From NCBI GenBank assembly GCA_038044285.1, contig JBBTAH010000031.1:1-23596 (forward strand): a stretch of 23,596 nucleotides of DNA, given 5' to 3'. Made by a program: the position numbers and the translations under genes. Below are positions 5,614-23,596 of the stretch, piece by piece. This stretch comes from Nanobdellota archaeon. GTDB lineage: Archaea; Nanobdellota; Nanobdellia; Pacearchaeales; GW2011-AR1. Positions within the stretch are counted from its first letter, which is position 1. The number at the start of each line of letters is the position of its first letter. The notes under the pieces are model-generated. The model did no database searches. It had not been told where the DNA came from and saw only the letters and a list, made by a program, of their open reading frames with translations.

Positions 5614-6636
5614 ATGAAAGAACTGAAAATTATTTTGAGTGGACGTGTGCAAGGCGTTAGGTTTAGGCATTTTGTCAAAGAAACTGCCGATGTACTTGAT
5701 GTGAAAGGTTACGTGCAAAATCAGCCTGACGGCTCTGTGCTTGTTGTGGCTCAGGGCAGCGAGGGAAATCTCAAAATTTTTCTTGAGCGCTTGCAAAAAG
5801 GAAATGCTCTTTCTAAGATAGATAGCTTTCATTATATTTGGCGCGAAGCATCTGAGATTTTTGAAAGCTTTGAGATTAAAATTGATAAGGCTTTTGTTGC
5901 TGACCAAACGTTAAGCCTTTTTAACTTGAGCAAGAGCTTATTTCATATGAGAACTAAATCGCCACGACATGTTGCAATAATTCCTGATGGGAATCGCAGA
6001 TGGGCGCAAGAGCGTGGAAAGCCAGGGATTGAAGGACACGCTTATGCTTCTAGATATGAGCATTTGCGCTCGCTTCTTGATGAGGCGCGAAATTTAGGAG
6101 TGGAATACGTGACTTTTTGGGCGTTTTCGACGGATAATTGGCAGCGCGAGAAGCATGAAGTTGACAGACTTTTTTCTTTAATGACTCGGGTTTTGAAAAG
6201 ATTGGAAAGAGATGCTGTTGCAAAGAAGATAAGATTCCGCCACATAGGAAGAAGAGATAGGTTACCTGGAAAATTATTACGTGCGATAGAATCTTTGGAG
6301 GGAAGAACAAAAGATTTTCAAGATTTTAATTTACAGATTGCGATTGATTATGGCGGGCGTGATGAGATTTTGCGTGCTGTGAACCGAATGCTTGCTAATG
6401 GAGATAAGTCTGTTAGCGAAGGAGATTTTATGAAATATTTAGACACGCACGAAATTCCTGATCCTGATTTGATTATCAGAACTGCCGGCGAGTATCGTTT
6501 AAGCGGGTTTATGCCTGTGCAAGGAGCTTACGCTGAATTTTATTTTACTGACAGAAAGTTTCCTGATTTTATGCCTGAGGATTTGAGAGCTGCTGTTTCG
6601 GAGTTTGTGCGGCGGAAAAGGAATTACGGGAAATAA
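5614..6636 (+). CDS. uppS: acylphosphatase domain fused to cis-prenyltransferase (undecaprenyl-diphosphate synthase, UppS)
   Basis: Residues 1-90 carry both acylphosphatase signatures (LSGRVQGVRFRHF and GYVQNQPDGSVLVVAQG). Residues about 115-340 carry UppS hallmarks (HVAIIPDGNRRWA, VTFWAFSTDNW, IRTAGEYRLSGFMPVQGAYAEFYF). There is no stop between the two domains. The gene starts 8 nt after the DHH gene stop and has no TATA of its own. Confidence 0.85.
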   Translation: MKELKIILSGRVQGVRFRHFVKETADVLDVKGYVQNQPDGSVLVVAQGSEGNLKIFLERLQKGNALSKIDSFHYIWREASEIFESFEIKIDKAFVADQTLSLFNLSKSLFHMRTKSPRHVAIIPDGNRRWAQERGKPGIEGHAYASRYEHLRSLLDEARNLGVEYVTFWAFSTDNWQREKHEVDRLFSLMTRVLKRLERDAVAKKIRFRHIGRRDRLPGKLLRAIESLEGRTKDFQDFNLQIAIDYGGRDEILRAVNRMLANGDKSVSEGDFMKYLDTHEIPDPDLIIRTAGEYRLSGFMPVQGAYAEFYFTDRKFPDFMPEDLRAAVSEFVRRKRNYGK

Positions 6637-6694: not shown

Positions 6695-8056
6695 ATGATT
6701 GGGAAAATCGGGCTTGAGATACACACGTATTTGACGACGCGGGAGAAACTCTTTTGCAGATGTAGGGCATCACGTGAACGTGGTACTAAGCCTAATAGTT
6801 TTGTTTGCCCGATTTGCACTGGACAGCCGGGCGCTAAGCCGATGAGGCCGAATGCCGACGCTGTTGTTAAGGCAGTTAAAATAGGTTTGTTGCTTGAGTG
6901 CAAGATAAATAATGTTTGCCCGTGGATGAGAAAACATTACGACTGGCCGGATTTGCCGAAAGGATATCAAACTACTTTGAGTGGGGCGCATGCTGTGCCT
7001 TTAGGAATTGACGGAAAATTTTTAGGAATTAGAATTGAGAGCATGCATCTTGAAGAAGATCCTGCGGCGTGGGATCCGAATACGGGGAAATTAGATTATA
7101 ATCGCTCTGGTTTGCCTCTTGTTGAAATTGTGACTGCACCAGATTTCAAGACTGCGCAGGAAGTTTATGATTGGGTTAGGAAATTGGTTCATGCTTTAAG
7201 CTATTTGAAGGCTGTTGATTCAAACGCTGGGATTAAGGCAGACGTTAATGTTAATTTAGTTGATGAGCGGGGAGCGAAGAAAACAGAGAGAGTTGAGGTC
7301 AAAAATGTTAATTCTGTTGAAAACATGCGGGCAGCTATTGAGCATGAGATTGAAAGGCAGATGCGCGAAGGAGGCGTGCGCGAGACTCGGAGATTTGACG
7401 AGGTTAAGGGAAAGACGATTAGAATGCGTGGAAAGGAGCAGGCTTGGGATTATAGATTTATTGCCGACCCTGATTTAGTTGTTTTACAGATTTCTAAAGA
7501 CAATGTCTTGAAGTTACAAAAAGAATTGCCTGAATTGCCTAATGTTAAACTTGAGAGATTAATAAAGAAATACAAAATTTCTTCAACAGATGCGGCTGTT
7601 CTTGCGAAGAACATTGATATTGCTTTATTTTTTGAGAAAGTCGCCGGAAGAATTGACGGGAGTTTTGCATTGCCTTGGGTGAATGTCGAGCTTTTGAGGG
7701 TTTTGAATTGGAATAAAAAATCACTTGATGAAGTTTCAATTTCTGTTGAGCATTTTGTCAAACTGCTTGAGATGGTAAAGAATAGGAAAATTACTGAACT
7801 ACAGGCAAAGCAGATTTTGAATAAATTCGTGCCTGCGAGCTTTGATCCTTCCAAAGTTGATGGAAAGATTTCTGATATTAAAGAACTTGAACCATTTGTT
7901 TTGAAAGTTATTAAAGAGAATGCGAAGGTTGTTGCGGACTATAAGTCAGGCGACGCTAAGGCTTTGAATTTTTTGCTTGGTGAAGTTATGAAAGCAACTG
8001 AACGGCGTGCTGATTTTGCTGTTGCGCGGAGATTGCTTGAGAATATCTTGAAATAA
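6695..8056 (+). CDS. gatB: aspartyl/glutamyl-tRNA amidotransferase subunit B
   Basis: The N-terminus IGLEIHTYLTTREKLFCRC...CPICTGQPGAKP and the block MHLEEDPAA fit GatB. The C-terminal tail domain is GatB/YqeY-like (ALNFLLGEVMKATERRAD). Confidence 0.85.
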   Translation: MIGKIGLEIHTYLTTREKLFCRCRASRERGTKPNSFVCPICTGQPGAKPMRPNADAVVKAVKIGLLLECKINNVCPWMRKHYDWPDLPKGYQTTLSGAHAVPLGIDGKFLGIRIESMHLEEDPAAWDPNTGKLDYNRSGLPLVEIVTAPDFKTAQEVYDWVRKLVHALSYLKAVDSNAGIKADVNVNLVDERGAKKTERVEVKNVNSVENMRAAIEHEIERQMREGGVRETRRFDEVKGKTIRMRGKEQAWDYRFIADPDLVVLQISKDNVLKLQKELPELPNVKLERLIKKYKISSTDAAVLAKNIDIALFFEKVAGRIDGSFALPWVNVELLRVLNWNKKSLDEVSISVEHFVKLLEMVKNRKITELQAKQILNKFVPASFDPSKVDGKISDIKELEPFVLKVIKENAKVVADYKSGDAKALNFLLGEVMKATERRADFAVARRLLENILK

Positions 8057-8057
8057 A

Positions 8058-8152
8058 CGGCCCTACGAGGAATTGAACCTCGGTCCTCAGGTTGCTTCAA
8101 AACTATTTTGTTTCGCCGAAGCCTGATATTCTATCCGTTAAACTATAGGGCC
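8058..8152 (-). tRNA. tRNA-Arg (anticodon UCG) with a 23-nt canonical-position intron
   Basis: The minus strand folds as GGCCCTA TA GTTT AACGGATA GAAT A TCAGG CTTCGG [intron] A CCTGA GGAC CGAGG TTCAATT CCTCG TAGGGCC G. The acceptor stem has 7 perfect pairs, the T arm is 5 bp with a TTCAATT loop, and the anticodon stem is 5 bp. U33 and G37 flank the anticodon TCG. The exons total 72 nt. No CCA is encoded. Confidence 0.85.
8093..8115 (-). other. tRNA intron (between positions 37 and 38), bulge-helix-bulge type
   Basis: The intron is CGAAACAAAATAGTTTTGAAGCA. Its GAAG pairs with the CTTC of the anticodon loop, the usual archaeal pre-tRNA arrangement at a 37/38 intron. Confidence 0.7.
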
Positions 8153-13610: not shown

Positions 13611-13631
13611 CTCCTTTTTTGTTTGACTTTC

Positions 13632-15113
13632 ATGCATGATTATTCAAAATTAGGCTTTAAAGCAGGACTTGAGATTCATCAGCAACTTGACACGCCGAAA
13701 TTATTTTCTGGGGCGCCGTCGTTTTTAAGAAATGATGAGCCTCATTATAGAATTGAAAGAAAATTGCACGCTGTTGCTGGAGAAACTGGTGTTGTGGATG
13801 AGGCTGTTGCCCACGAGGCTGCACTTGGAAAAACATTTGTTTATGGGGGTTATCGCGATTCTGTTTCTTTGGTTGAACTGGATGAAGAGCCAGCGCATGC
13901 TGTGAATAGTGAGGCGCTTGATGTTGCATTGACTGTCGCTTTATTGCTTAATTGTGAGATTTATCCTGTTACTCAAGTTATGAGGAAGACGGTTATTGAC
14001 GGCTCCAATACTTCGGGATTTCAGAGAACTGTTTTGATTGCACATGATGGATTTGTTGATACTTCATTTGGAAATGTGCGTGTTGCAACTGTGTGTTTAG
14101 AAGAAGATTCTGCGCGTTTGATATCGCGCGAGAAAAATAAATCTGTTTATCGTCTTGACAGACTTGGAATTCCTCTTGTTGAAATTGCGACTTATCCTGA
14201 TTTGCGAAATGCCGAGCAGGTTAAAGAATGCGCTTTGAAATTGGGAGAGATTTTGAGGGCTTGCCGCGTGAAGAGAGGAATTGGCACAATTAGACAGGAT
14301 GTTAATATTTCTGTTTCTGGGCATGATAGAGTTGAGATTAAAGGATTTCAGGATCCAAAAATGATGATTACTACGATTGATAAGGAAATTGAAAGACAGC
14401 TTTTGGATTTGAAAAATAAAAAATTGTCTGGAAATTCGAAAGGCGCCAGAGATTTATTGCGCGGCGATGTTAGAAACGCTTTGCCCGACGGCTCTTCGGA
14501 GTTTTTGAGGCCGATGCCAGGCGCTTCGCGAATGTATCCTGAAACAGATTTGCCTCTTTTAAGAATTGGGCTTGAAAAAGTTAATAGGATTAAGAAAAAT
14601 TTGCCCAAGCTTAAATCGGATATTCGCGATGAACTGAAAAAGAAAGGACTTACTGATGAGATGATTAAACTTGTTTTGTCTGAGAATTATTATTTTGATA
14701 GCTTTGAGAATTTGTTAAATATTTATAGCAAAGATGCTAACTTGATTGCTAAGATGGTTGTCTTGTGGCGAGAAGAGATTGCTACTAAAACTGGAAAGAC
14801 GATTGACGGCGTAATGAAAGTTTTACACGAAAGAGTTTTAGAGCAGATTCTTGAATTAGTGCGTGACGGCAAGCTGGAAAATGGCGATGTCAAATCAGTC
14901 ATGATGAAAATTGCAGAAGGTGTTAAGTTTAGCGATGCTGTTAAAATTGATAAAATTAGCGATGATGAAGTTGAGATTTATGTTAGGGAAATTGTTAAGG
15001 AAAAACCTGGAATGCGGGCGAATGCATATATGGGAATGGTGATGGCTAAATTTAAAGGCAAGATTGACGCGAAGAAAGCGATGGAAATTATAGATAGAGT
15101 TGTTGGAAAATGA
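13632..15113 (+). CDS. gatE: glutamyl-tRNA(Gln) amidotransferase subunit E, short form (493 aa)
   Basis: YSKLGFKAGLEIHQQLDT, SLVELDEEPAH, MRKTVIDGSNTSGFQRTVL, LDRLGIPLVEIAT, RGIGTIRQDVNISV and LRPMPGASRMYPETD are GatE-type blocks, and gatD lies directly upstream. The start is set at ATG 13632 rather than the track's TTG 13623, based on TATA spacing. Confidence 0.85.
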   Translation: MHDYSKLGFKAGLEIHQQLDTPKLFSGAPSFLRNDEPHYRIERKLHAVAGETGVVDEAVAHEAALGKTFVYGGYRDSVSLVELDEEPAHAVNSEALDVALTVALLLNCEIYPVTQVMRKTVIDGSNTSGFQRTVLIAHDGFVDTSFGNVRVATVCLEEDSARLISREKNKSVYRLDRLGIPLVEIATYPDLRNAEQVKECALKLGEILRACRVKRGIGTIRQDVNISVSGHDRVEIKGFQDPKMMITTIDKEIERQLLDLKNKKLSGNSKGARDLLRGDVRNALPDGSSEFLRPMPGASRMYPETDLPLLRIGLEKVNRIKKNLPKLKSDIRDELKKKGLTDEMIKLVLSENYYFDSFENLLNIYSKDANLIAKMVVLWREEIATKTGKTIDGVMKVLHERVLEQILELVRDGKLENGDVKSVMMKIAEGVKFSDAVKIDKISDDEVEIYVREIVKEKPGMRANAYMGMVMAKFKGKIDAKKAMEIIDRVVGK

Positions 15114-15185: not shown

Positions 15186-15193
15186 TTTTTAAA
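15186..15193 (+). promoter_or_regulatory. TATA box for the orphan plus-strand gene pair
   Basis: TTTTTAAA, with its centre 25.5 nt upstream of ATG 15215. Confidence 0.45.
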
Positions 15194-15214
15194 GATGGTT
15201 TTTTGTTGTTTTTA

Positions 15215-16939
15215 ATGAAAATGGATTTGGACGATGCTGAGTCGGTTGATAGTGTACAGATTATTCTTCCTATTTGGGATAAATTGAAAGTTAGAAATGC
15301 GATGAGGCATTTGGGAGAATTTATTAGAACTTCTCCTATACGGGGACGGGTTAGTATTGATGATGACGGAGGAAGTAGTTCGATTTTTTTAAAGGCGAGA
15401 GACAGGGGTGCTGGCAGGTCTTTGTTTCAAGCTCGAGATTTATTGAGAAAAGCTGTTTTAGAAATAGGAATTGATAGTGGTAATGTTATTGTTCATCCTT
15501 ACAATGACTCTTCTGGTAGAAGGACGTCTTCTAGTGGAGTTAATAGTAATGAAAAGACTTTGAGTGCTATGCAAGCCCAGATAATTGATTTGAGGGAGCA
15601 ACTTGTTGGGAAGATGAATGAGATTGGTGAACTGCAAACATATCAGGCAGATCTGGAAGCTCGCTTGGTCAGCGCTAATGCGCCAATTTCTAGAAGAGGG
15701 GATTTGCATATTTTGGAGTCTGTTAGACTGGGGAGAGTTAAAGAATTAGCTGAGACTTCAAGAGCTTATGCTGATGCTGAAAGAGATTTTAAGTATGAAG
15801 AGGGAAAGGACCATAACCAGCAGCTTATTGATGCAGCAAGAGCTTCGCGCAGTGATTTTGAGAAAACTGAATTTTATGCGCAGAATTCGAAATTAATAGA
15901 AAAAGCCAGAGAGGCAATTGTGCGGGCAGAGAATGATCCTTTTGTTAATGTTGAAAGAGCTAAGAATTTGCTTGCTGAAGTTGAGGCTAAAAAAACTGAG
16001 CACGATAATAAAAAACAAAATACTGAAAAAATCAGAGCTGCGCTTGACGGGAAGAGGGTGCTTTATCAAGTTATTTCTGAAGAAGACGGCGAGAATTACA
16101 AAATTAGTGTTGTTATGCCAATTCAATATCAAGAAGATATGAAGAATCATTCTGCTTTGGAGCTGGATTTGATTGCTCATGTGCATGATCAGTGGAATAC
16201 TCTTAGGTCCGATACTCCAATTAAAGGATTTAAACGCGAAGGAAGACTTGGAGTTGTTGCTTATAATTATTTTATACCTCGCACAGGTATGTCTCCTGAA
16301 AAAATCAGAGCTGTTGAAGATAAAATAGTTAATGCACTATTTAATTCTCAGAGAGATTATGCTTTTGGAGCCTTTGGCTTGAGAGTTGATTTGGAAAAAA
16401 TTACGAGCACTGCCGGACAAAGATTAGAAGGCGAGGTTTATTCTTCAGAACCTCGGGCTGTTGCTGATGATGCTCCGAAGAAAAGAGAGAGAACTTCTGC
16501 AGAAAAAGCAACGATAACAAGACCAGAAGGAATGAAATTTGGAGGAACAACTTCACTTGAGTATGGTGGGGGGATAACTGCTGAGCAAGTTGATGTCAGG
16601 GTTTCAGAGTCTTTAGCAGCAATAGATAGAAATGTAAATTATCAGGGCTTGCCAAATATTAGTGGTTGGGGAAGAAGTACGAGATCACAAGCTTTAGTTA
16701 TGGGGGCTATTCGGATTTTGGCGGAAAGCGGAAGAACATTCTCATCTCAAGAATTGTTGGAAGCTTTAAAAAAAGTGATTCCAGAATTGGACAATTATTT
16801 AGGCAATGAGGTAGCCAACAATAATTTGAGAATTGGTTTGATTCACTTTAATAAGAAATTTGGGATGCTTGAATTTATAAAAGATCCCGCGACAAGAAGA
16901 GTTAGCTATAAAATAAAGGAGCAATACAGAAGACAATGA
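15215..16939 (+). CDS. hypothetical protein (574 aa): N-terminal globular domain, Ser-rich linker, long predicted coiled coil, central domain, possible C-terminal winged-helix
   Basis: A long uninterrupted ORF. The start is set at ATG 15215 (the track uses TTG 15203). Residues roughly 120-290 are heptad-like and charged (LSAMQAQIIDLREQLVGKMNEIGELQTYQADLEARL ... AKNLLAEVEAKKTEHDNKKQNTEKIRAAL). The last 85 or so residues (SQALVMGAIRILAESGRTFSSQELLEALKK...RRVSYKIKE) look wHTH-like to me, but this is a weak call. I recognise no family. Confidence 0.7.
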   Translation: MKMDLDDAESVDSVQIILPIWDKLKVRNAMRHLGEFIRTSPIRGRVSIDDDGGSSSIFLKARDRGAGRSLFQARDLLRKAVLEIGIDSGNVIVHPYNDSSGRRTSSSGVNSNEKTLSAMQAQIIDLREQLVGKMNEIGELQTYQADLEARLVSANAPISRRGDLHILESVRLGRVKELAETSRAYADAERDFKYEEGKDHNQQLIDAARASRSDFEKTEFYAQNSKLIEKAREAIVRAENDPFVNVERAKNLLAEVEAKKTEHDNKKQNTEKIRAALDGKRVLYQVISEEDGENYKISVVMPIQYQEDMKNHSALELDLIAHVHDQWNTLRSDTPIKGFKREGRLGVVAYNYFIPRTGMSPEKIRAVEDKIVNALFNSQRDYAFGAFGLRVDLEKITSTAGQRLEGEVYSSEPRAVADDAPKKRERTSAEKATITRPEGMKFGGTTSLEYGGGITAEQVDVRVSESLAAIDRNVNYQGLPNISGWGRSTRSQALVMGAIRILAESGRTFSSQELLEALKKVIPELDNYLGNEVANNNLRIGLIHFNKKFGMLEFIKDPATRRVSYKIKEQYRRQ

Positions 16940-18489
16940 CGGAGAAAACAGAAAAAAAAGAACGAAGCGAAGGAACATTAACAGCGAGGCAACTTATTAA
17001 GGACAGGAGTTTGGAAAGTTATACTGATGAGGTTTTTAGAGTTATTCATGATAGGGGCATGAACTCGCGAAGATTATACTCTGGAGATATTGAACTTATT
17101 TTAGGATATGTTACAGGAGATAGAAAGAGAAAATCAGCTGATTTAGCTGATGAATCTGAACCTGTTCAGATGCCTACAACTGACAGCTCAAAGCTGATTT
17201 TGAAAGTAAGAGATCCGGTTAGAAAAGTAACTAGATATATGTTTGCCGGCGATTTGGAGAATCTTGACTCTGATTCTGACAGAGAAGATGTTTTCCTTCA
17301 GGATTTTGTTTCTAGACTTGAAATGTCTTTAGATTATAGGCCGCCGAGTAAGCGTGGAGGCGGCGGAGGAGGAGGAGGAGGCGGTGGCGGCGGAGGTAAA
17401 AAACGAGAAGAAGTCAGAATTGCTGGGAGAGTTGCCGCTTATTTGTTAGATCATAGAGATGACCAAGGACTGGTTTCTTTGTTATATGGAGAACCAAGAA
17501 ATGATTCTGTTAATTTAACGAACAGTACAGCGCTTTTAGAAGGAATTGCTTCTAGTAGAGTTATTGATCTTTTGAGAAGTAGAGGGCTTGAGATTGAAGC
17601 ATTGACTCCTGAAGGACTAATGAATTTAGCGAAGAAAGAGAAGGCGCGAAGGTTTGCGAGAGATGTTGCCAATTATTTCCATGAAGGAAATGGTCAGTTC
17701 ATTAAGATTGGAGAGAATGGTTTTAGAATAGAATGGGACAGGGCAGACGATGCAAAAGATATTATCCGATGGCTTGAGCAGAATATAGAATTTTCTGAGA
17801 AGGGATTGCCATTTTATATGAATTGTGTTAAGGCGAAGTTAGAGGGCCAGCTTTCTGCACGCCATGGGCCTGTGAATGTGAGAACGTTGTTTAAGCATTG
17901 GACAATGGCTTCTTCCCATTATGAATTTGTGAGAGCCCATAGCTACACTAGGCCGATGCTTAGAGAGAATGCGCGGAAAATTGACTTTGATGATTTGGCT
18001 GCAAGAATAGTTAAAGATTTTACAGGGAATCCAAAATATAATGAAGGAGATGCTAGAAGATTTATCGGAGGATTGTTTGTTGCTGGAAAAATAAATCTTT
18101 CTGATAGAACAGACGGCGCCCGTACAGATTTTGAGACATCTGAAAGAACGGGGAACTATGCTGATTATGTTATTGTAAAATATAATGAAATTGGAGAGCT
18201 TGTACAAAGAACAATGGGGAGAATTGTAGCCGGGAAAGCAAAAAAGAGCGTTAATCCTGCTGACGCTTCACTTTATTCATCGGTGAAAGAAGGAAGATTG
18301 GAAATAAAAGACAGAGCAGATGCAAGACATTTAGCCAGAACATTAAGGGCGCAGTTAACTGACACTGAAAGGAAGAAAATTACTGATAGAGTAGTTGCTA
18401 ATAGAGTATTATCTGACCAAGGAGTCGATAAAATATTTGCTTTGTATGTTTGGAATGAACGTGATAATCTTGTAAAGAGATATTCTTAA
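16936..18489 (+). CDS. hypothetical protein (517 aa) with an internal poly-glycine linker
   Basis: Its ATG overlaps the stop of the upstream gene (ATGA at 16936..16939), implying translational coupling. A 14-codon Gly run flanked by basic residues (PPSKR-G14-KKREE) separates a 140-aa N-terminal region from a 360-aa C-terminal region. I recognise no family. Confidence 0.7.
   Translation: MTEKTEKKERSEGTLTARQLIKDRSLESYTDEVFRVIHDRGMNSRRLYSGDIELILGYVTGDRKRKSADLADESEPVQMPTTDSSKLILKVRDPVRKVTRYMFAGDLENLDSDSDREDVFLQDFVSRLEMSLDYRPPSKRGGGGGGGGGGGGGGKKREEVRIAGRVAAYLLDHRDDQGLVSLLYGEPRNDSVNLTNSTALLEGIASSRVIDLLRSRGLEIEALTPEGLMNLAKKEKARRFARDVANYFHEGNGQFIKIGENGFRIEWDRADDAKDIIRWLEQNIEFSEKGLPFYMNCVKAKLEGQLSARHGPVNVRTLFKHWTMASSHYEFVRAHSYTRPMLRENARKIDFDDLAARIVKDFTGNPKYNEGDARRFIGGLFVAGKINLSDRTDGARTDFETSERTGNYADYVIVKYNEIGELVQRTMGRIVAGKAKKSVNPADASLYSSVKEGRLEIKDRADARHLARTLRAQLTDTERKKITDRVVANRVLSDQGVDKIFALYVWNERDNLVKRYS
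17356..17397 (+). repeat. GGN microsatellite (14 consecutive glycine codons)
   Basis: It reads gga ggc ggc gga gga gga gga gga ggc ggt ggc ggc gga ggt in frame. This is the most GC-rich 42 nt I noticed in the window. Confidence 0.95.
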
Positions 18490-18579
18490 TGACTTTTGAT
18501 TTATTAAATTATTTATTATTGTTAATACAGAATAATTGGGCTCTTTTTGGTTCGTAAATATATCAATTATTTATTTTTA

Positions 18580-19020
18580 TTATTTTTCTTCGTGCCAATT
18601 TTCCGGCTCTTTGATGATGCCGTAGCCAACATATAATTCATCTATGCCGTCTTCTTTGTCAGGAGTGAATCTTTCTTTTACTCTGTAACGCACATCTTCG
18701 ACTTGGTCTTCTAATTTTACTGTGAAAGGAACTTCAATTACTCCGCTTCTGTTTCTAATAGCTGAATCATGTATTGAAGTTGTAAAAATCGGTTGTTCTG
18801 GGTTGCCGCGCCGTACGTCTCCAGCTTTTTGAAACATACTTAGAGTTGCTTTTTCTTTATCTGCATCTACAAAATATCCTATAATTCTTTCTGTTCCTTC
18901 GTATAATGCGGGATTTCCTGGCTGATATTCAACGTAAACTGCCGGAAAAACAATTTCTATTAAATCTTGAGGCTTCGCATCGCTCATTATTTCTCTTAAT
19001 GGTTTATATGCTTCGCTCAT
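18580..19020 (-). CDS. hypothetical protein (146 aa)
   Basis: Complete ATG ORF whose start overlaps the stop of the upstream gene (ATGA at 19020..19017). I recognise no motif, and the sequence looks mostly beta-strand-like. Confidence 0.65.
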   Translation of the reverse strand: MSEAYKPLREIMSDAKPQDLIEIVFPAVYVEYQPGNPALYEGTERIIGYFVDADKEKATLSMFQKAGDVRRGNPEQPIFTTSIHDSAIRNRSGVIEVPFTVKLEDQVEDVRYRVKERFTPDKEDGIDELYVGYGIIKEPENWHEEK

Positions 19021-19499
19021 GCTCTTACAGCTTTGAAATAAGCAATTCTGTTTGCAGGACTACCCTTTGGAATTTCATCAACAATTTGGAGACCTTGTCT
19101 GGCGTAATCTATTGCTTTTGGGGTGAAGTATAGTCCATTTTCACCGACTCTTGCGCCTGCTAGCTGACCGAAACCAAATTTTTCACAGATTGCTTTAGGA
19201 CCTAAGTCTTCACTGCCTGCAACTATTTTCCTTAAAGTTATTAGGCCTGTTTTTCCGTCGGCATGAGCTGTAATTACGGGAATATTTCCTCTTCTGCTTG
19301 AGAAAACTCCGATTGAACCTGGAGCTAGGGAAAACAATTCACTGTCTGTGTCTCTTATTGCTGCGTCCCATGCGTCGACTTCTGTTAAAACACCCGAATA
19401 AGCATTACTTGCTGAACTATAATTAAAAACTCCGCTAAACATTAAATCTCTTGCAACTTGTTTAGAATTTCTATTCCAAAAATCTTTGTCAAATGTCAT
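19017..19499 (-). CDS. possible 3-methyladenine DNA glycosylase (AAG/Mpg, PF02245)-like protein; the start is uncertain (ATG 19499 gives 160 aa, TTG 19697 gives 226 aa)
   Basis: By eye the sequence follows the AAG pattern. FWNRNSKQVARDLMFSGVF compares with FF..PA..LAR.LLG..LV. GVLTEVDAW compares with G.IVETEAY. LFSLAPGSIGVFSS...GLITLRKIVA compares with MF..PG..YVY..YG....VLIRA.EP. LGPKAICEKFGFGQLAGARVGENGLYF compares with SGPgKL..ALgI....G.dl.....l.i. This similarity starts right at Met 19499, which also has a TTTATAAA box at the standard 25.5-nt spacing. The track ORF extends 66 codons further, to a TTG that overlaps the upstream gene. Confidence 0.4.
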   Translation of the reverse strand: MTFDKDFWNRNSKQVARDLMFSGVFNYSSASNAYSGVLTEVDAWDAAIRDTDSELFSLAPGSIGVFSSRRGNIPVITAHADGKTGLITLRKIVAGSEDLGPKAICEKFGFGQLAGARVGENGLYFTPKAIDYARQGLQIVDEIPKGSPANRIAYFKAVRA

Positions 19500-19520
19500 A
19501 ACTTTGTAATTAATACAGGC

Positions 19521-19528
19521 TTTATAAA
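19521..19528 (-). promoter_or_regulatory. TATA box upstream of ATG 19499
   Basis: TTTATAAA, a palindromic 8-mer, with its centre 25.5 nt from the A of ATG 19499. The spacing is identical to that of the other promoters in the window. Confidence 0.45.
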
Positions 19529-19559
19529 TTTTGTGGTTACTCCTTATTTTTACAATATG

Positions 19560-19608
19560 TCGAAGTGCTTCTTGATAACTCCAGCCTTTAGGCTGGAGAG
19601 CACTTCGA
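19560..19608. repeat. GC-rich compound inverted repeat (stem-loop with 10-bp and 8-bp stems)
   Basis: The plus strand reads tcgaagtgct-(tcttgataa)-ctccagcc-ttta-ggctggag-agcacttcga. The outer arms 19560..19569 and 19599..19608 and the inner arms 19579..19586 and 19591..19598 are perfectly complementary. The loop is 4 nt and there is a one-sided 9-nt bulge. Confidence 0.9.
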
Positions 19609-19689
19609 GCATCCAAAAATCGAGCACCAATCAAACCACATCTTTTAAGGTGTGGTGGTGCATCGATTTTTTGATTATCGTGCGCTTTT

Positions 19690-21081
19690 TTATTCAATAA
19701 CTATCAGGCTCTTGACCATTCCTTTAACTTGACCTACTTTTTTTCTAAGCCTGAAATGCTCCAATGTTTGGCTTAAGAGTTTTCTTTCTACTTCATTTGT
19801 TTCTTCGTCTTTTTCTTTTTCAATTTCTAATATTGTTGCATTCTGGTCTTTTACAAATTGCTCTTCATATAATGCTCTTTTTTTTGTCAACAAAATTGTT
19901 GCTATAACATCGCTTTGCGCGAAAACTACTGGGTTTATTGCTGTACAAATATCTTTCAAGCATCTTTTTGCGTCGTAGTTTACTGCGTTGTTTGCCCTTG
20001 GAATCCTGCAACTGCCGAGATATCTACCCAAAGACCTTTTTCTTTTTGTCATATCTTTTAAAAGTTCCCTGTCTTTTTCATTTAAAGTTGACAATCTTGA
20101 TGCAAGCAGAAGGTCGCTTCCGTCTATTCCTTCGTCCTGCATTAATGCAAGATATCCGAACATATTTTCCTGCACGAGTTTTTCAACAAATCTTATTCTA
20201 TCTTCTTCTCTTATTCCTTTTTTCCCCACTTCTTCGTCTAAAGTTACAGCTCTTGATTTTATTGGATCTTCTAGAAGCTCAAAGAAGAAATCTCTCCATC
20301 TGACTCCGTGCCTTTCTTTTAGTCTTCTTAACATTGGCCGGTATTGGCCCCCGATTCTTTTTTTGGCAAATGCGTTATCTTTTATGTCAAATCTGTCAAG
20401 AAATCTTTCAATGCCTCTTTTGTAATTGGCATCGTCTCTGTAAGTTTCGTACGCTTTTAGGAATTCAGATGCCGCTTCTCTTGCTAGGATTCTATCTTCT
20501 AAAATATCAACGACTCTTTTTTTGGCTTTATCGCTTAATGTTTCTAAGACCAGGCCGGTAATTAATTCTGGATTTGAGACTATTACGCTTAGAATTCCGT
20601 ATCTGTTGAATCCGTCGACACCTTCCATATATTTAAGCGCTTCAAGGTATTCGTGATTTTTCAGCTCTTTTGTTCTCTCAAGGTGCTCTATTACTCCGTT
20701 TAATAAAGGAGAATATGTTCCGACGCTGTTCCCATTTACTAAGGTTTTGTCGTGAGCGTTCCAAGATAGCAGGAAATTATCTAAGGTGAATCTAGGGTCA
20801 TATCTTAGAACTTCATAATTTGCTAAGAAATCGTCGACTGCATGCGGCAGTCCGTTTGTTGCGCAATTTAATGCGCAGTAATCTAAGATTAGATTTCTTT
20901 GCTCTTCATTCAGGCCTGATTCTCTAAGAGCATCCAACATGTCTGGGTGCGGTTCAAAAATTTCGCCTTGAAGATAATCATTAAAGTATCTTCTAAACCT
21001 GCTGACTACTGCTATTCCTTCTTCACTTAAGCTTGAATATCTTTCATTTGCTCTTGCCTCTAAACTTTTTATTTCACTCAT
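19690..21081 (-). CDS. hypothetical protein (463 aa), mostly alpha-helical in appearance
   Basis: Complete ATG ORF that starts 1 nt after the stop of the SNF2-methyltransferase gene (TAAAATG). A G8 run lies 8-15 nt upstream of the ATG. I recognise no family. Confidence 0.7.
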   Translation of the reverse strand: MSEIKSLEARANERYSSLSEEGIAVVSRFRRYFNDYLQGEIFEPHPDMLDALRESGLNEEQRNLILDYCALNCATNGLPHAVDDFLANYEVLRYDPRFTLDNFLLSWNAHDKTLVNGNSVGTYSPLLNGVIEHLERTKELKNHEYLEALKYMEGVDGFNRYGILSVIVSNPELITGLVLETLSDKAKKRVVDILEDRILAREAASEFLKAYETYRDDANYKRGIERFLDRFDIKDNAFAKKRIGGQYRPMLRRLKERHGVRWRDFFFELLEDPIKSRAVTLDEEVGKKGIREEDRIRFVEKLVQENMFGYLALMQDEGIDGSDLLLASRLSTLNEKDRELLKDMTKRKRSLGRYLGSCRIPRANNAVNYDAKRCLKDICTAINPVVFAQSDVIATILLTKKRALYEEQFVKDQNATILEIEKEKDEETNEVERKLLSQTLEHFRLRKKVGQVKGMVKSLIVIE

Positions 21082-21082
21082 T

Positions 21083-23596
21083 TTATTTCCCCCCCCTTCT
21101 TCTTGTCATGAATCCTTCTATTATTGAGACAATTTCTTCAGGAGTTCTTACTGTCTTTTGTGCAGGTTCTATTGAGGGCCTTTGTGCTTTTCTTGAACTT
21201 ATGACTGCTCCGTTATTAACGAATTGGAATTGGGTGCATAGCTCTTCACGATATCCTTGAGGGCTGTTTTTTCCTGATTCTCTTATATCGCCGTTTCCAG
21301 GATTTGAGTATAATGATTCTGAGCTTAAAATAAAAAATCTGTCTAACGAACGGTCTTTGTACGAGGCGGGCGGATTGTCGTGGGTTTTTTTGACTACAGT
21401 GACATAAACTTCATATTTATCTGATAGTCCGTCAATTGCTTTTACGACGCCTGTTCTTTCTGGGACTGGCTCGAGACCAATTCTTCTTAATCCTTCCTGC
21501 AATAACTCGCTTCCTGTTTCTTCTACAAGCTTTGACGGGAGAGTTATAATTCCGTATCCTCCTGGTCTGATTATTCTGCTTGTTTCTAATGCCATTCTTT
21601 TTCTTCCGCCGTTTTCACTATTTCCGTAATGAAGAACTAACGAAAGAACTGCTAAGTCATATTCACGTGATTTTACTTCTTTTGATAAATCTTCTATGTC
21701 TGCGACCAGTGTTTCAACTCCTATTCCGAGAGCTTCCGCCTCCCTTTTTCCTATTTTTAACTGATGGGGATTAATATCAACGCACAAACTTGGCCTTCTT
21801 AATTTTCTTGAAACTGTCGCCGGAGAGCCGAGGTCAATTATTTTTTCTAATTTGCTTCCTTCTTTTCCTTCTATTTCACGAACAAGACCTTCAATTAATC
21901 TTGCTGTGTGGGCAGAGTACGAGCTTTCCCATTTAAAGTTGTAAGCCTGCGCATAAATCTGCGCATGGTCTCCTTCTGCAAGATAAGTTCTATTTTTTTC
22001 TGACCCTTTGTTCAACATATGGCCGCTCATCATTCTTATTTGTGAGCGTGCGTTCATCATGTATCTTTTAATAGGTGTTTGTGCGACAATTGGTTTTTTC
22101 TTGGCAAGCGCTTCTTTTTGCTCTTCTGATAATTCGCGGCCGCCTTCTGCCTCTTCTATTCCTGCTCTTTTTATTTCTTCTGTGTCTTCGTATATTCCTT
22201 GCTCAACTGTTCCGCCCATTATTAATGTGTGCACATTTACTTCTTTTTGCTGTCCTCTTCGTGCAATTCTACCAATTGCCTGGTCATTCAAGCCAGGAGA
22301 GAAATCTCTCATGATGAACACGCAGTTGTTTGCTGCGTGCAAGTCCTGTCCTTCTCTGATTGAATCAATGCTTGCGACCAGGACTCTTTTGTCTGGGTTT
22401 GTCTGGAATTCAAGTCTTCTTTTGTCTCTTTCACTGTATCTCTCTTTTCCAGGATCTGAGCTTACTGTTCCGTCTATTCTTATTGAGCCGTGTTCTGCGT
22501 ATCTTTGTTCTAATCTTTCTGTGATTCCATTTCTTAATTTTGTCCAAATTACTATTTTCTCTCCTTTTTCCACTGCTTCTTTTACTAGTTTATCCAGCTC
22601 TTTGTATTTTGTTGAGTCTATTCTTTTTGTGGCTTCCAGCAAACCAGGATTTGCTTGGAAAAATTCTTCCATTTTTCTTCTTGATTTTCCTTCGTGATTT
22701 TCCGGCAAAAGAAGAGTCCCGTCTGTTGCTGCTAATCTTGTTAGGACGAATTTTCTTCCCATTCCAAATTCTTTGTGGTCTAATACACTCCAGTATAATC
22801 TTTCTTCGTCTGGACTCATGCTCAAATATGTCGGAGGATTGATATTTACTTTAGGAACTCCTGGAAGATTTCTGAATGTTGTAACTGGCTCTTTGCTGAA
22901 CCTTCTTAAGAAGAGACGTATTAATCTTGGATTGCCTTCGTATGCTGTTTTGAAATTTTCTGCTGTTGGGAAATTTTCAGGGTCAAGCAAAGAAGCTAAT
23001 TCTCCGATGTCATCTAAATTGTCTGGAAACGGATTTCCTGTCATGGCGTAGAACCTGTCTGCACCTAGAGCGAGCTTTCTTACTGCTTTTGAGCGAAGAG
23101 CTTCTGGATTTTTTGCGTTGTGCGATTCGTCTAAGCATAACATCATCTGTTCTTGTGATGTTTCTACTGCCGAAAGAATTCTGTCTGCGAGAGTTACCTG
23201 ATCGTCTGTTATTCTTGGCTCTTCTCTTCTTAATCTTGCTATTTCGTGAGCTATATCGTCGGGGGTTTTGTTGTCAACTGTTCTGAAAAGTGCGTCGTAA
23301 CTTATTAATGTCCAGCCCAAAGTTCCATCTGCGATTCCTTTTTCAAATTTTTCTATTGCTTCTTTTCTGCTTCCACTTGTTATTGTTAAGACTTCCTGCC
23401 TGTCTTCAAGATATTCTCTTAATTTTGCTTCCCAGCTACTCAAGACAAAATTAGGACAAACTATTATAGGATTAATTTTTTCTCCGTCTAAGACTAATTG
23501 CTCTAACGCGAGTTTTGCTTTTATTACTGGTGCTGTTTTTCCTGCGCCTGCGCCGTCACGTATTAATAAGCGGCCGCGCTCTAACATTTGTGTTGT
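21083..23596 (-). CDS. SNF2-family ATPase/translocase fused to a C-terminal class-I (Methyltransf_11/25-like) methyltransferase-fold domain; 5' end probably beyond the window
   Basis: The SNF2 motifs are present: I DGAGAGKT, II LDESHNAKN (23120..23131 encodes DESH), III AMTGNPFPDNLDDIGELASLL, and V-VI SIREGQDLHAANNCVFIMRDFSPGLNDQAIGRIARRGQQKEV. The C-terminal region (about 21383..21970) follows the Rossmann methyltransferase order: KIIDLGSPATV (atypical motif I), LCVDINP, LVADIEDL, YDLAVLSLVLHY, RIIRPGGYGIITLP. The frame stays open from Met 23587 to the window edge, and only 10 residues precede motif I, so the N-terminus is likely truncated. Confidence 0.85.
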   Translation of the reverse strand, partial: TTQMLERGRLLIRDGAGAGKTAPVIKAKLALEQLVLDGEKINPIIVCPNFVLSSWEAKLREYLEDRQEVLTITSGSRKEAIEKFEKGIADGTLGWTLISYDALFRTVDNKTPDDIAHEIARLRREEPRITDDQVTLADRILSAVETSQEQMMLCLDESHNAKNPEALRSKAVRKLALGADRFYAMTGNPFPDNLDDIGELASLLDPENFPTAENFKTAYEGNPRLIRLFLRRFSKEPVTTFRNLPGVPKVNINPPTYLSMSPDEERLYWSVLDHKEFGMGRKFVLTRLAATDGTLLLPENHEGKSRRKMEEFFQANPGLLEATKRIDSTKYKELDKLVKEAVEKGEKIVIWTKLRNGITERLEQRYAEHGSIRIDGTVSSDPGKERYSERDKRRLEFQTNPDKRVLVASIDSIREGQDLHAANNCVFIMRDFSPGLNDQAIGRIARRGQQKEVNVHTLIMGGTVEQGIYEDTEEIKRAGIEEAEGGRELSEEQKEALAKKKPIVAQTPIKRYMMNARSQIRMMSGHMLNKGSEKNRTYLAEGDHAQIYAQAYNFKWESSYSAHTARLIEGLVREIEGKEGSKLEKIIDLGSPATVSRKLRRPSLCVDINPHQLKIGKREAEALGIGVETLVADIEDLSKEVKSREYDLAVLSLVLHYGNSENGGRKRMALETSRIIRPGGYGIITLPSKLVEETGSELLQEGLRRIGLEPVPERTGVVKAIDGLSDKYEVYVTVVKKTHDNPPASYKDRSLDRFFILSSESLYSNPGNGDIRESGKNSPQGYREELCTQFQFVNNGAVISSRKAQRPSIEPAQKTVRTPEEIVSIIEGFMTRRRGGK

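What the first reader, a model, noticed from the sequence alone, without database searches (positions are those of the whole stretch)
15186..23596. Six-gene block of orphan proteins around an SNF2-methyltransferase fusion: candidate undescribed nucleic-acid modification or surveillance module
Everything left of 15113 is readily recognisable. From 15186 to the window edge, six consecutive ORFs (574, 517, 146, 160-226, 463 and more than 837 aa) contain only one confidently identifiable enzyme core, the SNF2 ATPase. The block has three units. Unit A is on the plus strand (15215..18489) and consists of two genes sharing ATGA. Unit B is on the minus strand and consists of the SNF2-MTase gene and the 463-aa gene, separated by 1 nt. 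Unit C is also on the minus strand and consists of the AAG-like gene and the 146-aa gene sharing ATGA, apparently with its own TATA. Units A and C converge across a 90-bp spacer. A DNA translocase, a methyltransferase fold, a putative base-excision glycosylase and tightly coupled orphans resemble the composition of modification-based defence systems, since DISARM and BREX both pair helicase/ATPase proteins with a methyltransferase. SNF2 plus methyltransferase combinations also occur in the polyvalent proteins of mobile elements. The block fits none of the architectures I know. It has no PLD nuclease or DUF1998 partner (DISARM), no PglZ, BrxC or Lon-like protein (BREX), no recognisable restriction nuclease fold, and no integrase or transposase. 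The units use the same TATA-to-ATG spacing as the housekeeping genes, so the block looks natively expressed rather than freshly acquired.
Basis: partly seen in the sequence, partly recalled or inferred. Interest (0 to 1): 0.85.

Follow-up and report, generated by a model that had tools for sequence, protein, structure and literature searches.

The report
DPANN five-gene SNF2-methyltransferase module
The block is a real, rare gene module found only in tiny DPANN archaea: a DNA-motor/methyltransferase fusion always travels with four protein families that have no annotated relatives, one of them resembling a DNA-repair glycosylase, and its function is still unknown.

Summary
The window is from a groundwater Nanoarchaeota (DPANN) MAG. 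Five of the six genes form a conserved module. These are the SNF2-class I methyltransferase fusion, the 463-aa protein, the 160-aa protein, the 517-aa protein and the 574-aa coiled-coil protein. They recur together in at least 10 independent, deeply diverged DPANN lineages (fusion identity 25-51%), each time with different flanking genes. The 146-aa gene occurs only in the window's lineage.

The 463-aa family has only 30 representatives among 1.84 billion proteins. In every context I could read, it sits next to an SNF2 gene. I found no member in GTDB species genomes, IMG/VR or phage records. PADLOC, Pfam, NCBIfam, PHROGs and PDB recognise only the SNF2 and methyltransferase domains.

The 160-aa protein is probably a very derived AAG/MPG fold. 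Its Pfam hits are consistent but below threshold, and hhalign against human AAG gives 72%. The catalytic Glu is not conserved and the intercalating hairpin is missing. The methyltransferase looks like generic class I enzymes, not known DNA methyltransferases.

The best guess (about 0.4) is an accessory, defence-like DNA modification or surveillance complex. No known architecture fits. The window's own copy shows erosion: nonsense codons in the N-terminal domain and a deletion in SAM-binding motif I.

The parts
15186..15193 (+). TATA-like box (tttttaaa) at -29..-22 from the ATG of the 574-aa gene
   Evidence: Upstream sequence printed. The spacing is the same as for the 160-aa gene. Promoter function is inferred, not tested.
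15215..16939 (+). 574-aa coiled-coil protein (family A). It has an N-terminal alpha/beta region, a coiled coil at about residues 100-290, a conserved central domain at about 290-400, and a possible winged-helix C-terminus.
   Evidence: Homologues lie next to the module in L004, L005 and L008. Its central domain matches the 1003-1432-aa coiled-coil proteins at the same position in L015, L017 and L018 (hhalign 93.7%, E 2e-7). The PDB profile search returns only coiled-coil noise.
16936..18489 (+). 517-aa protein (family B), sharing an ATGA overlap with the 574-aa gene. It contains a 14-residue poly-Gly linker where homologues have Lys/Glu-rich linkers.
   Evidence: Homologues occur in L004, L008, L010, L015, L017 and L018. 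In L005 it is truncated to 88 aa. No Pfam or PDB match.
18490..18579 (.). 90-bp spacer between the convergent units
   Evidence: Coordinates.
18580..19020 (-). 146-aa orphan, specific to this lineage and not part of the conserved module. It shares an ATGA overlap with the 160-aa gene.
   Evidence: Found only in contigs of the same population (L001, L002). It is absent from all other loci. No family hits.
19017..19499 (-). 160-aa AAG/MPG-like protein (family E), a very derived Pur_DNA_glyco-like fold
   Evidence: PF02245 is the only recurrent Pfam hit: 8 of 13 family members, E 7e-4 to 0.17, all below the 27-bit cutoff. The L015 member covers profile positions 2-148 of 181. hhalign of the family against human AAG gives probability 72%, E 3.4e-5, over 130 colinear columns. 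AF2 failed with pLDDT 33.
19521..19528 (-). TATA-like box (tttataaa) at -29..-22 from the ATG of the 160-aa gene, inside the 190-bp spacer 19500-19689
   Evidence: This supports the 160-aa start rather than the 226-aa ORF.
19690..21081 (-). 463-aa all-alpha protein (family D), the obligate partner of the SNF2-MTase. It contains an internal duplication of a module of about 85 aa (residues 46-131 and 171-255).
   Evidence: It lies directly downstream of the SNF2-MTase in every locus read. Self-hhalign gives 93%, E 4e-7. There are only 30 representatives among 1.84e9 proteins. The AF2 model has pLDDT 61.5 and is all helical, with no Foldseek match in PDB or BFVD. No consistent Pfam hit across 27 members.
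21083..23587 (-). 834-aa SNF2 ATPase - class I SAM methyltransferase fusion (family C)
   Evidence: Pfam hits. Seven homologues at 42-51% identity. More distant homologues of 25-30% identity in L015, L017, L018 and L021. The alignment shows intact helicase motifs: GAGKT, DESH, REGQD and QAIGRxxRxGQ.
22130..23578 (-). SNF2-type ATPase core (residues 4-486)
   Evidence: PF00176 and PF00271. phrog_62, a large phage DNA helicase family, E 1.9e-45. PADLOC DrmD, ZorD and DpdE models match this region only.
21368..21865 (-). Class I SAM-dependent methyltransferase domain (about residues 575-740), Methyltransf_11/25 type
   Evidence: Motif I reads DLGS-PAT here, against DLGSGPAT in all seven homologues.

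Best explanation
The block is one copy of a conserved, DPANN-restricted, five-protein module built around an SNF2 translocase fused to a class I SAM-dependent methyltransferase.

**Shown.**
- The fusion is always followed by the 463-aa helical repeat protein, with stop and start overlapping or 1-40 nt apart.
- An AAG/MPG-like protein of 160-260 aa nearly always follows that.
- A second, translationally coupled pair accompanies them: a long coiled-coil protein and the 517-aa protein.
- The set keeps together while its genomic neighbourhood changes.
- It is very rare.

**Inferred mechanism.**
- The coiled-coil and 517-aa pair, which carry putative HTH or winged-helix ends, tethers or scaffolds the complex on DNA.
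- The SNF2 motor tracks along duplex DNA and carries the methyltransferase, which deposits a non-canonical methyl mark on a base.
- The AAG-fold protein flips and reads that base, or in the window's clade (which keeps an Asp at the catalytic position) possibly excises it.
- The 463-aa repeat protein acts as the adaptor between motor and reader.

The rarity, the movement as a unit and the occasional toxin-antitoxin or Abi neighbours suggest an accessory self/non-self (defence-like) DNA modification or surveillance system, not a housekeeping function.
For: **Co-occurrence of the core.** The order SNF2-MTase, then 463-like, then AAG-like is found in the window, L004, L005, L008, L014, L015, L017 and L021. 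In L018 and L013 the AAG-like gene is adjacent but inverted.

**Co-occurrence of the second pair.** The 517-aa family is in the window, L004, L008, L010, L015, L017 and L018. The coiled-coil family is in the window, L004, L005 and L008, with expanded homologues in L015, L017 and L018.

**Depth of divergence.** Even the weakest member of the 463-aa family (P0054, E 2e-4) lies between an SNF2-MTase and an AAG-like gene. An Aenigmatarchaeota protein with four copies of the 463-aa repeat sits next to an SNF2 gene.

**Rarity.** There are 30 representatives among 1.84e9 proteins. There are no matches in GTDB species genomes for two pattern sets.

**Taxonomy.** Named sources are all DPANN: Nanoarchaeota, Woesearchaeota and Aenigmatarchaeota.

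**Flanks.** They differ in every genome. L005 sits among ParE, HicAB, an IS element, SLFN and NYN genes. L017 is next to a Polbeta nucleotidyltransferase. L020 is next to AbiEi.

**Protein features.** The SNF2 motifs are intact.

**Background.** DPANN archaea are poor in R-M and CRISPR systems (PMC12988326).
Against: - No nuclease or other recognisable effector is present, and PADLOC finds nothing beyond the generic SNF2 domain.
- The methyltransferase resembles generic small-molecule or RNA class I enzymes. The best PDB match is 3sm3 at 5e-6, with weak hits to Rrp8 and cap-N7 methyltransferases. It has no (D/N/S)PP(Y/F) motif, so its substrate could be RNA, a protein or a small molecule.
- The position equivalent to the AAG catalytic Glu125 is Asp in the window's clade, Lys or Arg in clade 2, and Cys in L021. 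The Tyr162 hairpin is deleted. Glycosylase activity is therefore doubtful.
- The AAG assignment itself never reaches Pfam's threshold, and the AF2 model failed.
- In most genomes the module sits among housekeeping genes, and its GC content matches the surroundings.
- There are no experimental data.
Confidence: 0.4

Rival explanations
1. The module organises chromatin or the nucleoid and has no defence role. An SNF2 remodeller is fused to a methyltransferase that modifies a chromatin protein or DNA. It works with DNA-bridging coiled-coil and HTH scaffold proteins to shape or partition the small DPANN chromosome.
For: - Long coiled-coil proteins of 574-1432 aa, with weak winged-helix hints at their C-termini (MarR and Penicillinase_R hits, E 0.016-0.42), are translationally coupled to the 517-aa protein.
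- The methyltransferase is of the type that includes protein and RNA methyltransferases.
- The module is usually embedded among housekeeping genes and has native GC content.
Against: - The module is extremely rare and patchy: 30 representatives, and none in GTDB species genomes.
- Genes are lost or eroded in some copies. The 517-aa gene is truncated in L005, and the window's fusion has lost its N-terminal domain.
- A housekeeping chromatin role does not explain the AAG-like partner.
Confidence: 0.2
2. The module repairs DNA alkylation damage. The SNF2 motor, working like CSB, Mfd or RapA, clears or finds stalled complexes. The AAG-like protein removes alkylated purines. The other proteins are accessory.
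For: - The 160-aa family resembles AAG/MPG.
- SNF2 relatives such as RapA and HelZ-like helicases appear among the distant hits.
Against: - The catalytic carboxylate is not conserved and the intercalating hairpin is missing.
- A SAM-dependent methyltransferase has no obvious role in removing methyl lesions.
- Rarity argues against a core repair pathway.
Confidence: 0.1
3. The module acts on RNA or RNA-protein complexes. The methyltransferase modifies rRNA, tRNA or transcripts. The AAG-fold protein, which shares its fold with the tRNA-binding C-terminal domain of formyltransferase, binds RNA. The SNF2 domain acts on RNA polymerase or on RNA-protein complexes.
For: - The methyltransferase gives weak hits to Rrp8 (PF05148, E 1.6e-5 in L015), to cap guanine-N7 methyltransferase and to UbiE-type models.
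- No DNA methyltransferase motif is present.
Against: - SNF2 ATPases are duplex-DNA translocases (established knowledge of the family).
- The methyltransferase hits are generic to the class I fold.
- PF02245 itself is known only as a DNA glycosylase family.
Confidence: 0.1
4. The block is a fragment of an integrated virus, plasmid or other mobile element, in the manner of a polyvalent-protein cargo.
For: - The best profile match for the SNF2 core is a large phage helicase family (phrog_62, E 1.9e-45).
- SNF2-plus-methyltransferase fusions are typical of the polyvalent proteins of mobile elements (my own knowledge of Iyer et al. 2017).
- The module changes its genomic context between genomes.
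Against: - No integrase, capsid, terminase or replication genes lie next to any copy.
- IMG/VR has no relatives for three different queries.
- No phage record matches the 463-aa protein, and BFVD gives no structural match.
- No flanking direct repeats were found.
- Copies lie on contigs of 162-383 kb with housekeeping genes.
Confidence: 0.05

Closest known systems
DISARM class 1 (DrmD SNF2 helicase plus DrmMI methyltransferase, DrmA, DrmB, DrmC)
   Same: Both combine an SNF2-family ATPase with a methyltransferase in a multigene accessory locus. DrmD is the top PADLOC hit (E 8e-18).
   Different: - The hit covers only the generic helicase C-lobe. NCBIfam DrmD scores 41.5 bits against a 610-bit cutoff.
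- There is no DrmA, no DrmB (DUF1998) and no DrmC (PLD).
- The methyltransferase is fused to the SNF2 domain and is not an N6A or C5 DNA methyltransferase.
- The four partner families are unrelated to DISARM proteins.
BREX, Hma, Dpd and Zorya type I (other defence systems that contain SNF2 or helicase components)
   Same: A helicase or SNF2 component is paired with modification or effector genes. ZorD, DpdE, HmaA and BrxH models give partial hits on the SNF2 core.
   Different: None of the defining partners is detected: PglZ, BrxC and PglX; HmaB and HmaC; the DpdA TGT-like protein; ZorA and ZorB.
Polyvalent proteins of phages and conjugative elements (SNF2 plus methyltransferase modules)
   Same: The SNF2 and methyltransferase domains are fused in one polypeptide. 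The SNF2 core is most similar to a large phage helicase family (phrog_62).
   Different: - The protein is 834-1080 aa with only two enzymatic domains.
- It is chromosomal in DPANN archaea and was not found on viral contigs.
- It is always accompanied by four dedicated partner genes.
AAG/MPG alkyladenine DNA glycosylase (Pfam PF02245; human AAG, PDB 1F4R and 1EWN)
   Same: Several family motifs match in the same order: FF..VA..LLG, G.I.E.EAY aligned with TEVDAY, PG.lYVY aligned with PGSIGVF, and GPsKLcqAl aligned with LGPKAICEKF.
   Different: - All hits fall below Pfam's threshold.
- The protein is about 40 residues shorter.
- The hairpin carrying the intercalating Tyr162 and Asn169 is absent.
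- The Glu125 position is Asp, Lys, Arg or Cys depending on the clade.

Membership tests
SNF2-family ATPase | SNF2_N and Helicase_C domains above the Pfam gathering scores, with intact helicase motifs I, II and VI | tested here: met
   PF00176 scores 52 bits (cutoff 24.9) and PF00271 scores 34.6 bits (cutoff 23.5). The motifs GAGKT, DESH and QAIGRxxRxGQ are conserved in all 8 sequences.
Class I SAM-dependent methyltransferase (Methyltransf_11/25) | Rossmann-like methyltransferase domain above the gathering score, with motif I (D/E)xGxGxG | tested here: met
   PF13649 scores 29.5 bits (cutoff 27) and PF08241 scores 28.5 bits (cutoff 21.2). Homologues carry DLGSGPAT. The window copy has a one-residue deletion, DLGS-PAT.
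DNA amino- or C5-methyltransferases (R-M, DISARM or BREX type) | N6_Mtase, N6_N4_Mtase, MethyltransfD12 or DNA_methylase domains; a (D/N/S)PP(Y/F) or PC/ENV catalytic motif | tested here: not met
   No such Pfam or PADLOC hit. No such motif in the alignment. The closest solved relatives are generic small-molecule methyltransferases.
DISARM | DrmA helicase, DrmB (DUF1998) and DrmC (PLD) alongside DrmD and DrmMI | tested here: not met
   PADLOC and Pfam find only partial DrmD-like hits on the SNF2 core. NCBIfam DrmD scores 41.5 bits against a cutoff of 610.
BREX | PglZ phosphatase, BrxC ATPase, PglX methyltransferase and BrxL/Lon | tested here: not met
   None was detected in any of the six proteins.
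Zorya type I, Dpd, Hma | ZorA and ZorB; DpdA (TGT-like) and partners; HmaB and HmaC | tested here: not met
   Only the SNF2 core matches the ZorD, DpdE and HmaA models, and only partially. NCBIfam scores are far below the cutoffs.
AAG/MPG DNA glycosylase (PF02245) | Domain score above the Pfam gathering threshold (27 bits) | tested here: not met
   The best scores are 19.4 and 19.1 bits. Eight of 13 members hit at E 7e-4 to 0.17. The profile search against PDB does not recover AAG.
AAG/MPG DNA glycosylase (PF02245) | Overall fold homology to AAG | tested here: inconclusive
   hhalign of the family against human AAG gives probability 72%, E 3.4e-5, over 130 colinear columns. The AF2 model was unusable at pLDDT 33.
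AAG/MPG DNA glycosylase (PF02245) | Catalytic Glu (human E125, in ETEAY) and intercalating Tyr162 | tested here: not met
   The position is Asp in the window's clade, Lys or Arg in L015, L017 and L018, and Cys in L021. The segment containing Tyr162 is deleted. 1EWN (E125Q) confirms which residue is catalytic.
Polyvalent proteins of mobile elements | Giant multidomain protein encoded on a phage, plasmid or conjugative element | tested here: not met
   The protein has 834-1080 aa and two enzymatic domains. No viral contigs or phage records carry the partner genes. It lies on chromosomal contigs of up to 383 kb.

The most novel reading that the evidence does not exclude
The module is a new class of DNA-modification-based immunity or epigenetic self-marking that is specific to DPANN archaea. 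A translocating SNF2 motor carries a non-canonical class I methyltransferase that writes an unusual, lesion-like purine methylation. A stripped-down AAG-fold protein reads or excises that base. Two new scaffold families and a new helical-repeat adaptor organise the complex. This would be a writer, motor and base-flipping reader system with no nuclease.
Probability: 0.2. Interest if true: 0.85.

Novelty: new variant of a known kind. Interest (0 to 1): 0.62.

Why it matters
DPANN archaea have few recognisable R-M, CRISPR or other defence systems (PMC12988326). Much of their small genomes is unannotated.

This module is a concrete target for experiments. It has five genes and is kept together across very deep divergence. 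Its motor-methyltransferase fusion is unusual, and four of its protein families have no annotated relatives.

Working out its substrate could reveal one of three things:
- a new way of marking or policing DNA;
- a new use of the AAG fold;
- a chromatin system specific to ultrasmall archaea.

Even without a function, it defines four new protein families and a clear genomic signature for annotation.

Tried and rejected
- **Family libraries.** Pfam, PADLOC, NCBIfam and PHROGs on all six proteins gave only SNF2 and methyltransferase hits.
- **Profile searches against PDB.** The four orphan families returned nothing meaningful.
- **AF2 of the 160-aa protein.** With 5 sequences it failed at pLDDT 33.
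- **Concatenated alignment.** I queried the large protein database with a concatenated 463-aa plus 160-aa alignment. It returned only 3 proteins and wasted one search.
- **Pattern scans.** GTDB genomes (two scans) and IMG/VR (three scans) gave no relatives. The metagenome scan added only one duplicate locus.
- **Pfam scan of 27 members of the 463-aa family.** No recurrent family appeared. The DUF1599 and Rtt106_N hits are isolated.
- **TAA recoding.** I considered it as an explanation for the three in-frame TAA codons upstream of the SNF2 ATG. I rejected it because TAA terminates 9 of the 16 genes in the window.
- **Flanking att-like repeats.** None was found around four copies of the module.
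- **Literature searches.** None turned up a description of this gene set.
Full report
**Source and observation.**

The window comes from an archaeon. It encodes GatD/GatE, archaeal-type ProRS and an intron-containing tRNA. NCBI labels the SNF2 protein 'MAG: SNF2-related protein, partial [Nanoarchaeota archaeon]'. Identical genes occur on contigs from 0.1-micrometre filter fractions of Hainich groundwater.

- The 574-aa and 517-aa genes share ATGA.
- The 160-aa and 146-aa genes share ATGA.
- One nucleotide separates the SNF2-MTase gene from the 463-aa gene.
- The convergent spacer is 90 bp.
- TATA-like boxes lie at -29..-22 from the ATGs of the 574-aa and 160-aa genes.

Only the SNF2 ATPase and a Methyltransf_11/25 class I methyltransferase domain pass curated thresholds. 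PADLOC, NCBIfam and PHROGs find nothing for the other five proteins.

**Conserved co-occurrence.**

A search of 5.8 billion proteins found only seven close homologues of the fusion, at 42-51% identity and 900-943 aa. I read their contigs and compared them by BLAST, HMM and jackhmmer.
- The 463-aa family lies directly downstream of the fusion in every case.
- The 160-aa family follows it in the window, L004, L005, L008 and L014. In L013 it is on the opposite strand.
- The 517-aa and 574-aa families lie alongside in L004 and L008, as in the window.
- In L005 the 574-aa family is present and the 517-aa gene is cut down to 88 aa.
- In L010 the 517-aa homologue lies upstream of the fusion.
- The 146-aa gene is found only in the window's own population.

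An exhaustive HMMER search with the 463-aa profile found only 30 representatives at E<=1e-3 among 1.84 billion proteins. They include a second clade of shorter proteins (370-450 aa). I read their contexts in L015 (Woesearchaeota), L017, L018 and L021. Each again has an SNF2-MTase fusion of 1014-1080 aa, at 25-30% identity to the window's. Each also has the 463-like protein and a 209-259-aa protein of the 160-aa family. L015, L017 and L018 additionally carry a 516-610-aa homologue of the 517-aa protein. Just before that gene they carry a 1003-1432-aa coiled-coil protein. Its central domain matches the 574-aa family (hhalign 93.7%, E 2e-7).

In an Aenigmatarchaeota contig, a 705-aa protein with four copies of the 463-aa repeat sits next to an SNF2 gene.

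The real unit is therefore a five-gene module. It has been kept together across very deep divergence. Every source that names an organism assigns it to DPANN archaea.

**Mobile or accessory character.**

The flanking genes differ in every genome. They include GatE, an aminotransferase, TBP, GlnRS, a HAD hydrolase and NUDIX. One copy (L005) sits in an island with an IS element, ParE, HicAB, SLFN and NYN genes. Others lie next to a Polbeta nucleotidyltransferase or AbiEi.

I found no integrase, capsid or replication genes, and no flanking direct repeats. IMG/VR gave no relatives for three queries. No phage record matched the 463-aa protein, and BFVD gave no structural match. Two pattern scans of 185,579 GTDB species genomes found nothing. 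GC content does not differ from the rest of the window.

The module is rare, patchy and portable, but chromosomal.

**The proteins.**

*SNF2-MTase fusion.*
- All helicase motifs are intact.
- The SNF2 core's best profile match is a large phage helicase family (phrog_62, E 1.9e-45).
- The DrmD, ZorD, DpdE and HmaA models match only this generic core, and far below NCBIfam's cutoffs.
- The methyltransferase has motif I DLGSGPAT, post-I CVDIN and a VLHYG motif IV region.
- Its nearest solved relatives are generic class I enzymes: 3sm3 at 5e-6, then Rv0560c, MitM and arsenite methyltransferase, with weak hits to cap-N7 methyltransferase and Rrp8.
- Pfam adds UbiE and Methyltransf_8 hits in homologues.
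- Nothing marks it as a DNA methyltransferase.
- Homologues have an N-terminal domain of about 80 aa with a faint HNH_repeat hit (E 0.21).

*463-aa protein.* It is predicted to be all-helical (pLDDT 61.5). It contains an internal duplication, residues 46-131 against 171-255. It has no structural or Pfam relatives.

*574-aa protein.* It has a central coiled coil, a conserved alpha/beta domain and weak winged-helix hints at its C-terminus.

*517-aa protein.* It has a conserved N-terminal module of about 55 aa, which is the only part retained in L005. A low-complexity linker and a C-terminal domain of about 270 aa follow.

**The AAG-like protein.**

PF02245 is the only Pfam family that recurs. 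Eight of 13 members hit it, always colinear from the N-terminus. In L015 the hit covers profile positions 2-148 of 181. Every hit is below the 27-bit threshold.

I verified the human AAG sequence against PDB. hhalign of the family against it gave probability 72%, E 3.4e-5, over 130 colinear columns. The alignment lines up several AAG motifs.

Several features argue against a canonical glycosylase:
- The family is about 40 residues shorter than AAG.
- The hairpin carrying Tyr162 and Asn169 is missing.
- The position of the catalytic Glu125 is Asp in the window's clade, Lys or Arg in clade 2, and Cys in L021.

I conclude that this is probably an AAG-derived fold. It could be a non-canonical glycosylase in some clades. 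In the others it may only flip and read bases. AF2 could not confirm the fold.

**Interpretation.**

It is shown that this is a conserved, rare, portable five-component module restricted to DPANN archaea. The rest is inferred.

My best guess, at about 0.4, is an accessory DNA-directed system. In it the SNF2 motor carries the methyltransferase along DNA. The AAG-fold protein reads or excises a base. The 463-aa protein acts as an adaptor, and the coiled-coil and 517-aa pair as a DNA-bound scaffold. This resembles the modification-based defence theme of DISARM, BREX and Hma. It meets none of their membership criteria.

The rivals are a chromatin-organising complex (0.2), an alkylation-repair module (0.1), an RNA-directed system (0.1) and a mobile-element fragment (0.05).

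I rate it a new variant of a known kind: helicase-plus-methyltransferase accessory systems. There is a real possibility, about 0.2, that it is mechanistically new.

**State of the window's own copy.**

L001 is 100% identical to the window over the fusion gene. It shows that the region upstream of the ATG still aligns with the N-terminal domain of homologues. That region is interrupted by three in-frame TAA codons, and TAA is the normal stop codon here.

Motif I of the methyltransferase has lost one glycine. This deletion is seen in three independent assemblies.

This copy may be partly eroded, so homologues are better choices for experiments.

Noticed in passing
L001:1-155 (upstream of window 23587, beyond the window edge): The sequence upstream of the SNF2-MTase ATG still aligns in frame with the N-terminal domain of about 80 aa in homologues. 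It is interrupted by three TAA codons at positions where homologues have Tyr, Asp/Glu and Glu. The N-terminal domain appears to have been lost through nonsense mutations without any frameshift. This was seen in a single assembly at 3.8x coverage.
   Followed up: partly
window 21800-21830 (- strand; methyltransferase motif I, about residues 586-592): The window's methyltransferase has a one-residue deletion in the SAM-binding motif I. It reads DLGS-PAT, against DLGSGPAT in all seven homologues. The same sequence appears in three independent assemblies. SAM binding may be impaired in this copy.
   Followed up: partly
window 8058-8152 (- strand): Rfam finds a 95-nt tRNA (55 bits) that ARAGORN misses. 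It probably contains an archaeal intron. It lies between the gatB-like gene and the M1 aminopeptidase gene.
   Followed up: no
window 5614-6636 (+ strand): An acylphosphatase domain is fused to the N-terminus of a cis-prenyltransferase (UPP synthase-like). This is an unusual fusion.
   Followed up: no
window 17350-17400 (+ strand; 517-aa protein, about residues 141-154): The linker of the 517-aa protein contains a run of 14 consecutive glycine codons. Homologues have Lys/Glu-rich low-complexity linkers at the same place.
   Followed up: no
L005:14527-14793: In this marine lineage the 517-aa gene is reduced to an 88-aa ORF that keeps only the conserved N-terminal module of about 55 aa. The other four module genes are intact. 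That N-terminal piece may be the part that contacts the coiled-coil partner.
   Followed up: partly
L020:1295-3412 (Aenigmatarchaeota MAG GCA_042215745.1): A 705-aa protein carries four tandem copies of the helical module of about 100 aa that is duplicated in the 463-aa protein. It also has N-terminal HTH-like segments. It lies directly upstream of an SNF2 helicase gene and next to an AbiEi-like gene. P0052 (772 aa) and P0047 (500 aa) have similar multi-repeat architectures.
   Followed up: partly
L004:12841-12869 and 16794-16822: The promoter regions of the AAG-like gene and of the coiled-coil gene in L004 share an inverted 29-nt similarity, AGAAAGATTTTTAAA. It is probably just a common BRE/TATA element, but it could reflect co-regulation of the two units.
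   Followed up: no
window 6695-8056 and 13623-15113 (+ strand): A GatB-type protein and a GatE-type protein are both encoded within 7 kb, together with GatD. This organism therefore seems to keep parts of both tRNA-dependent amidotransferase systems.
   Followed up: no
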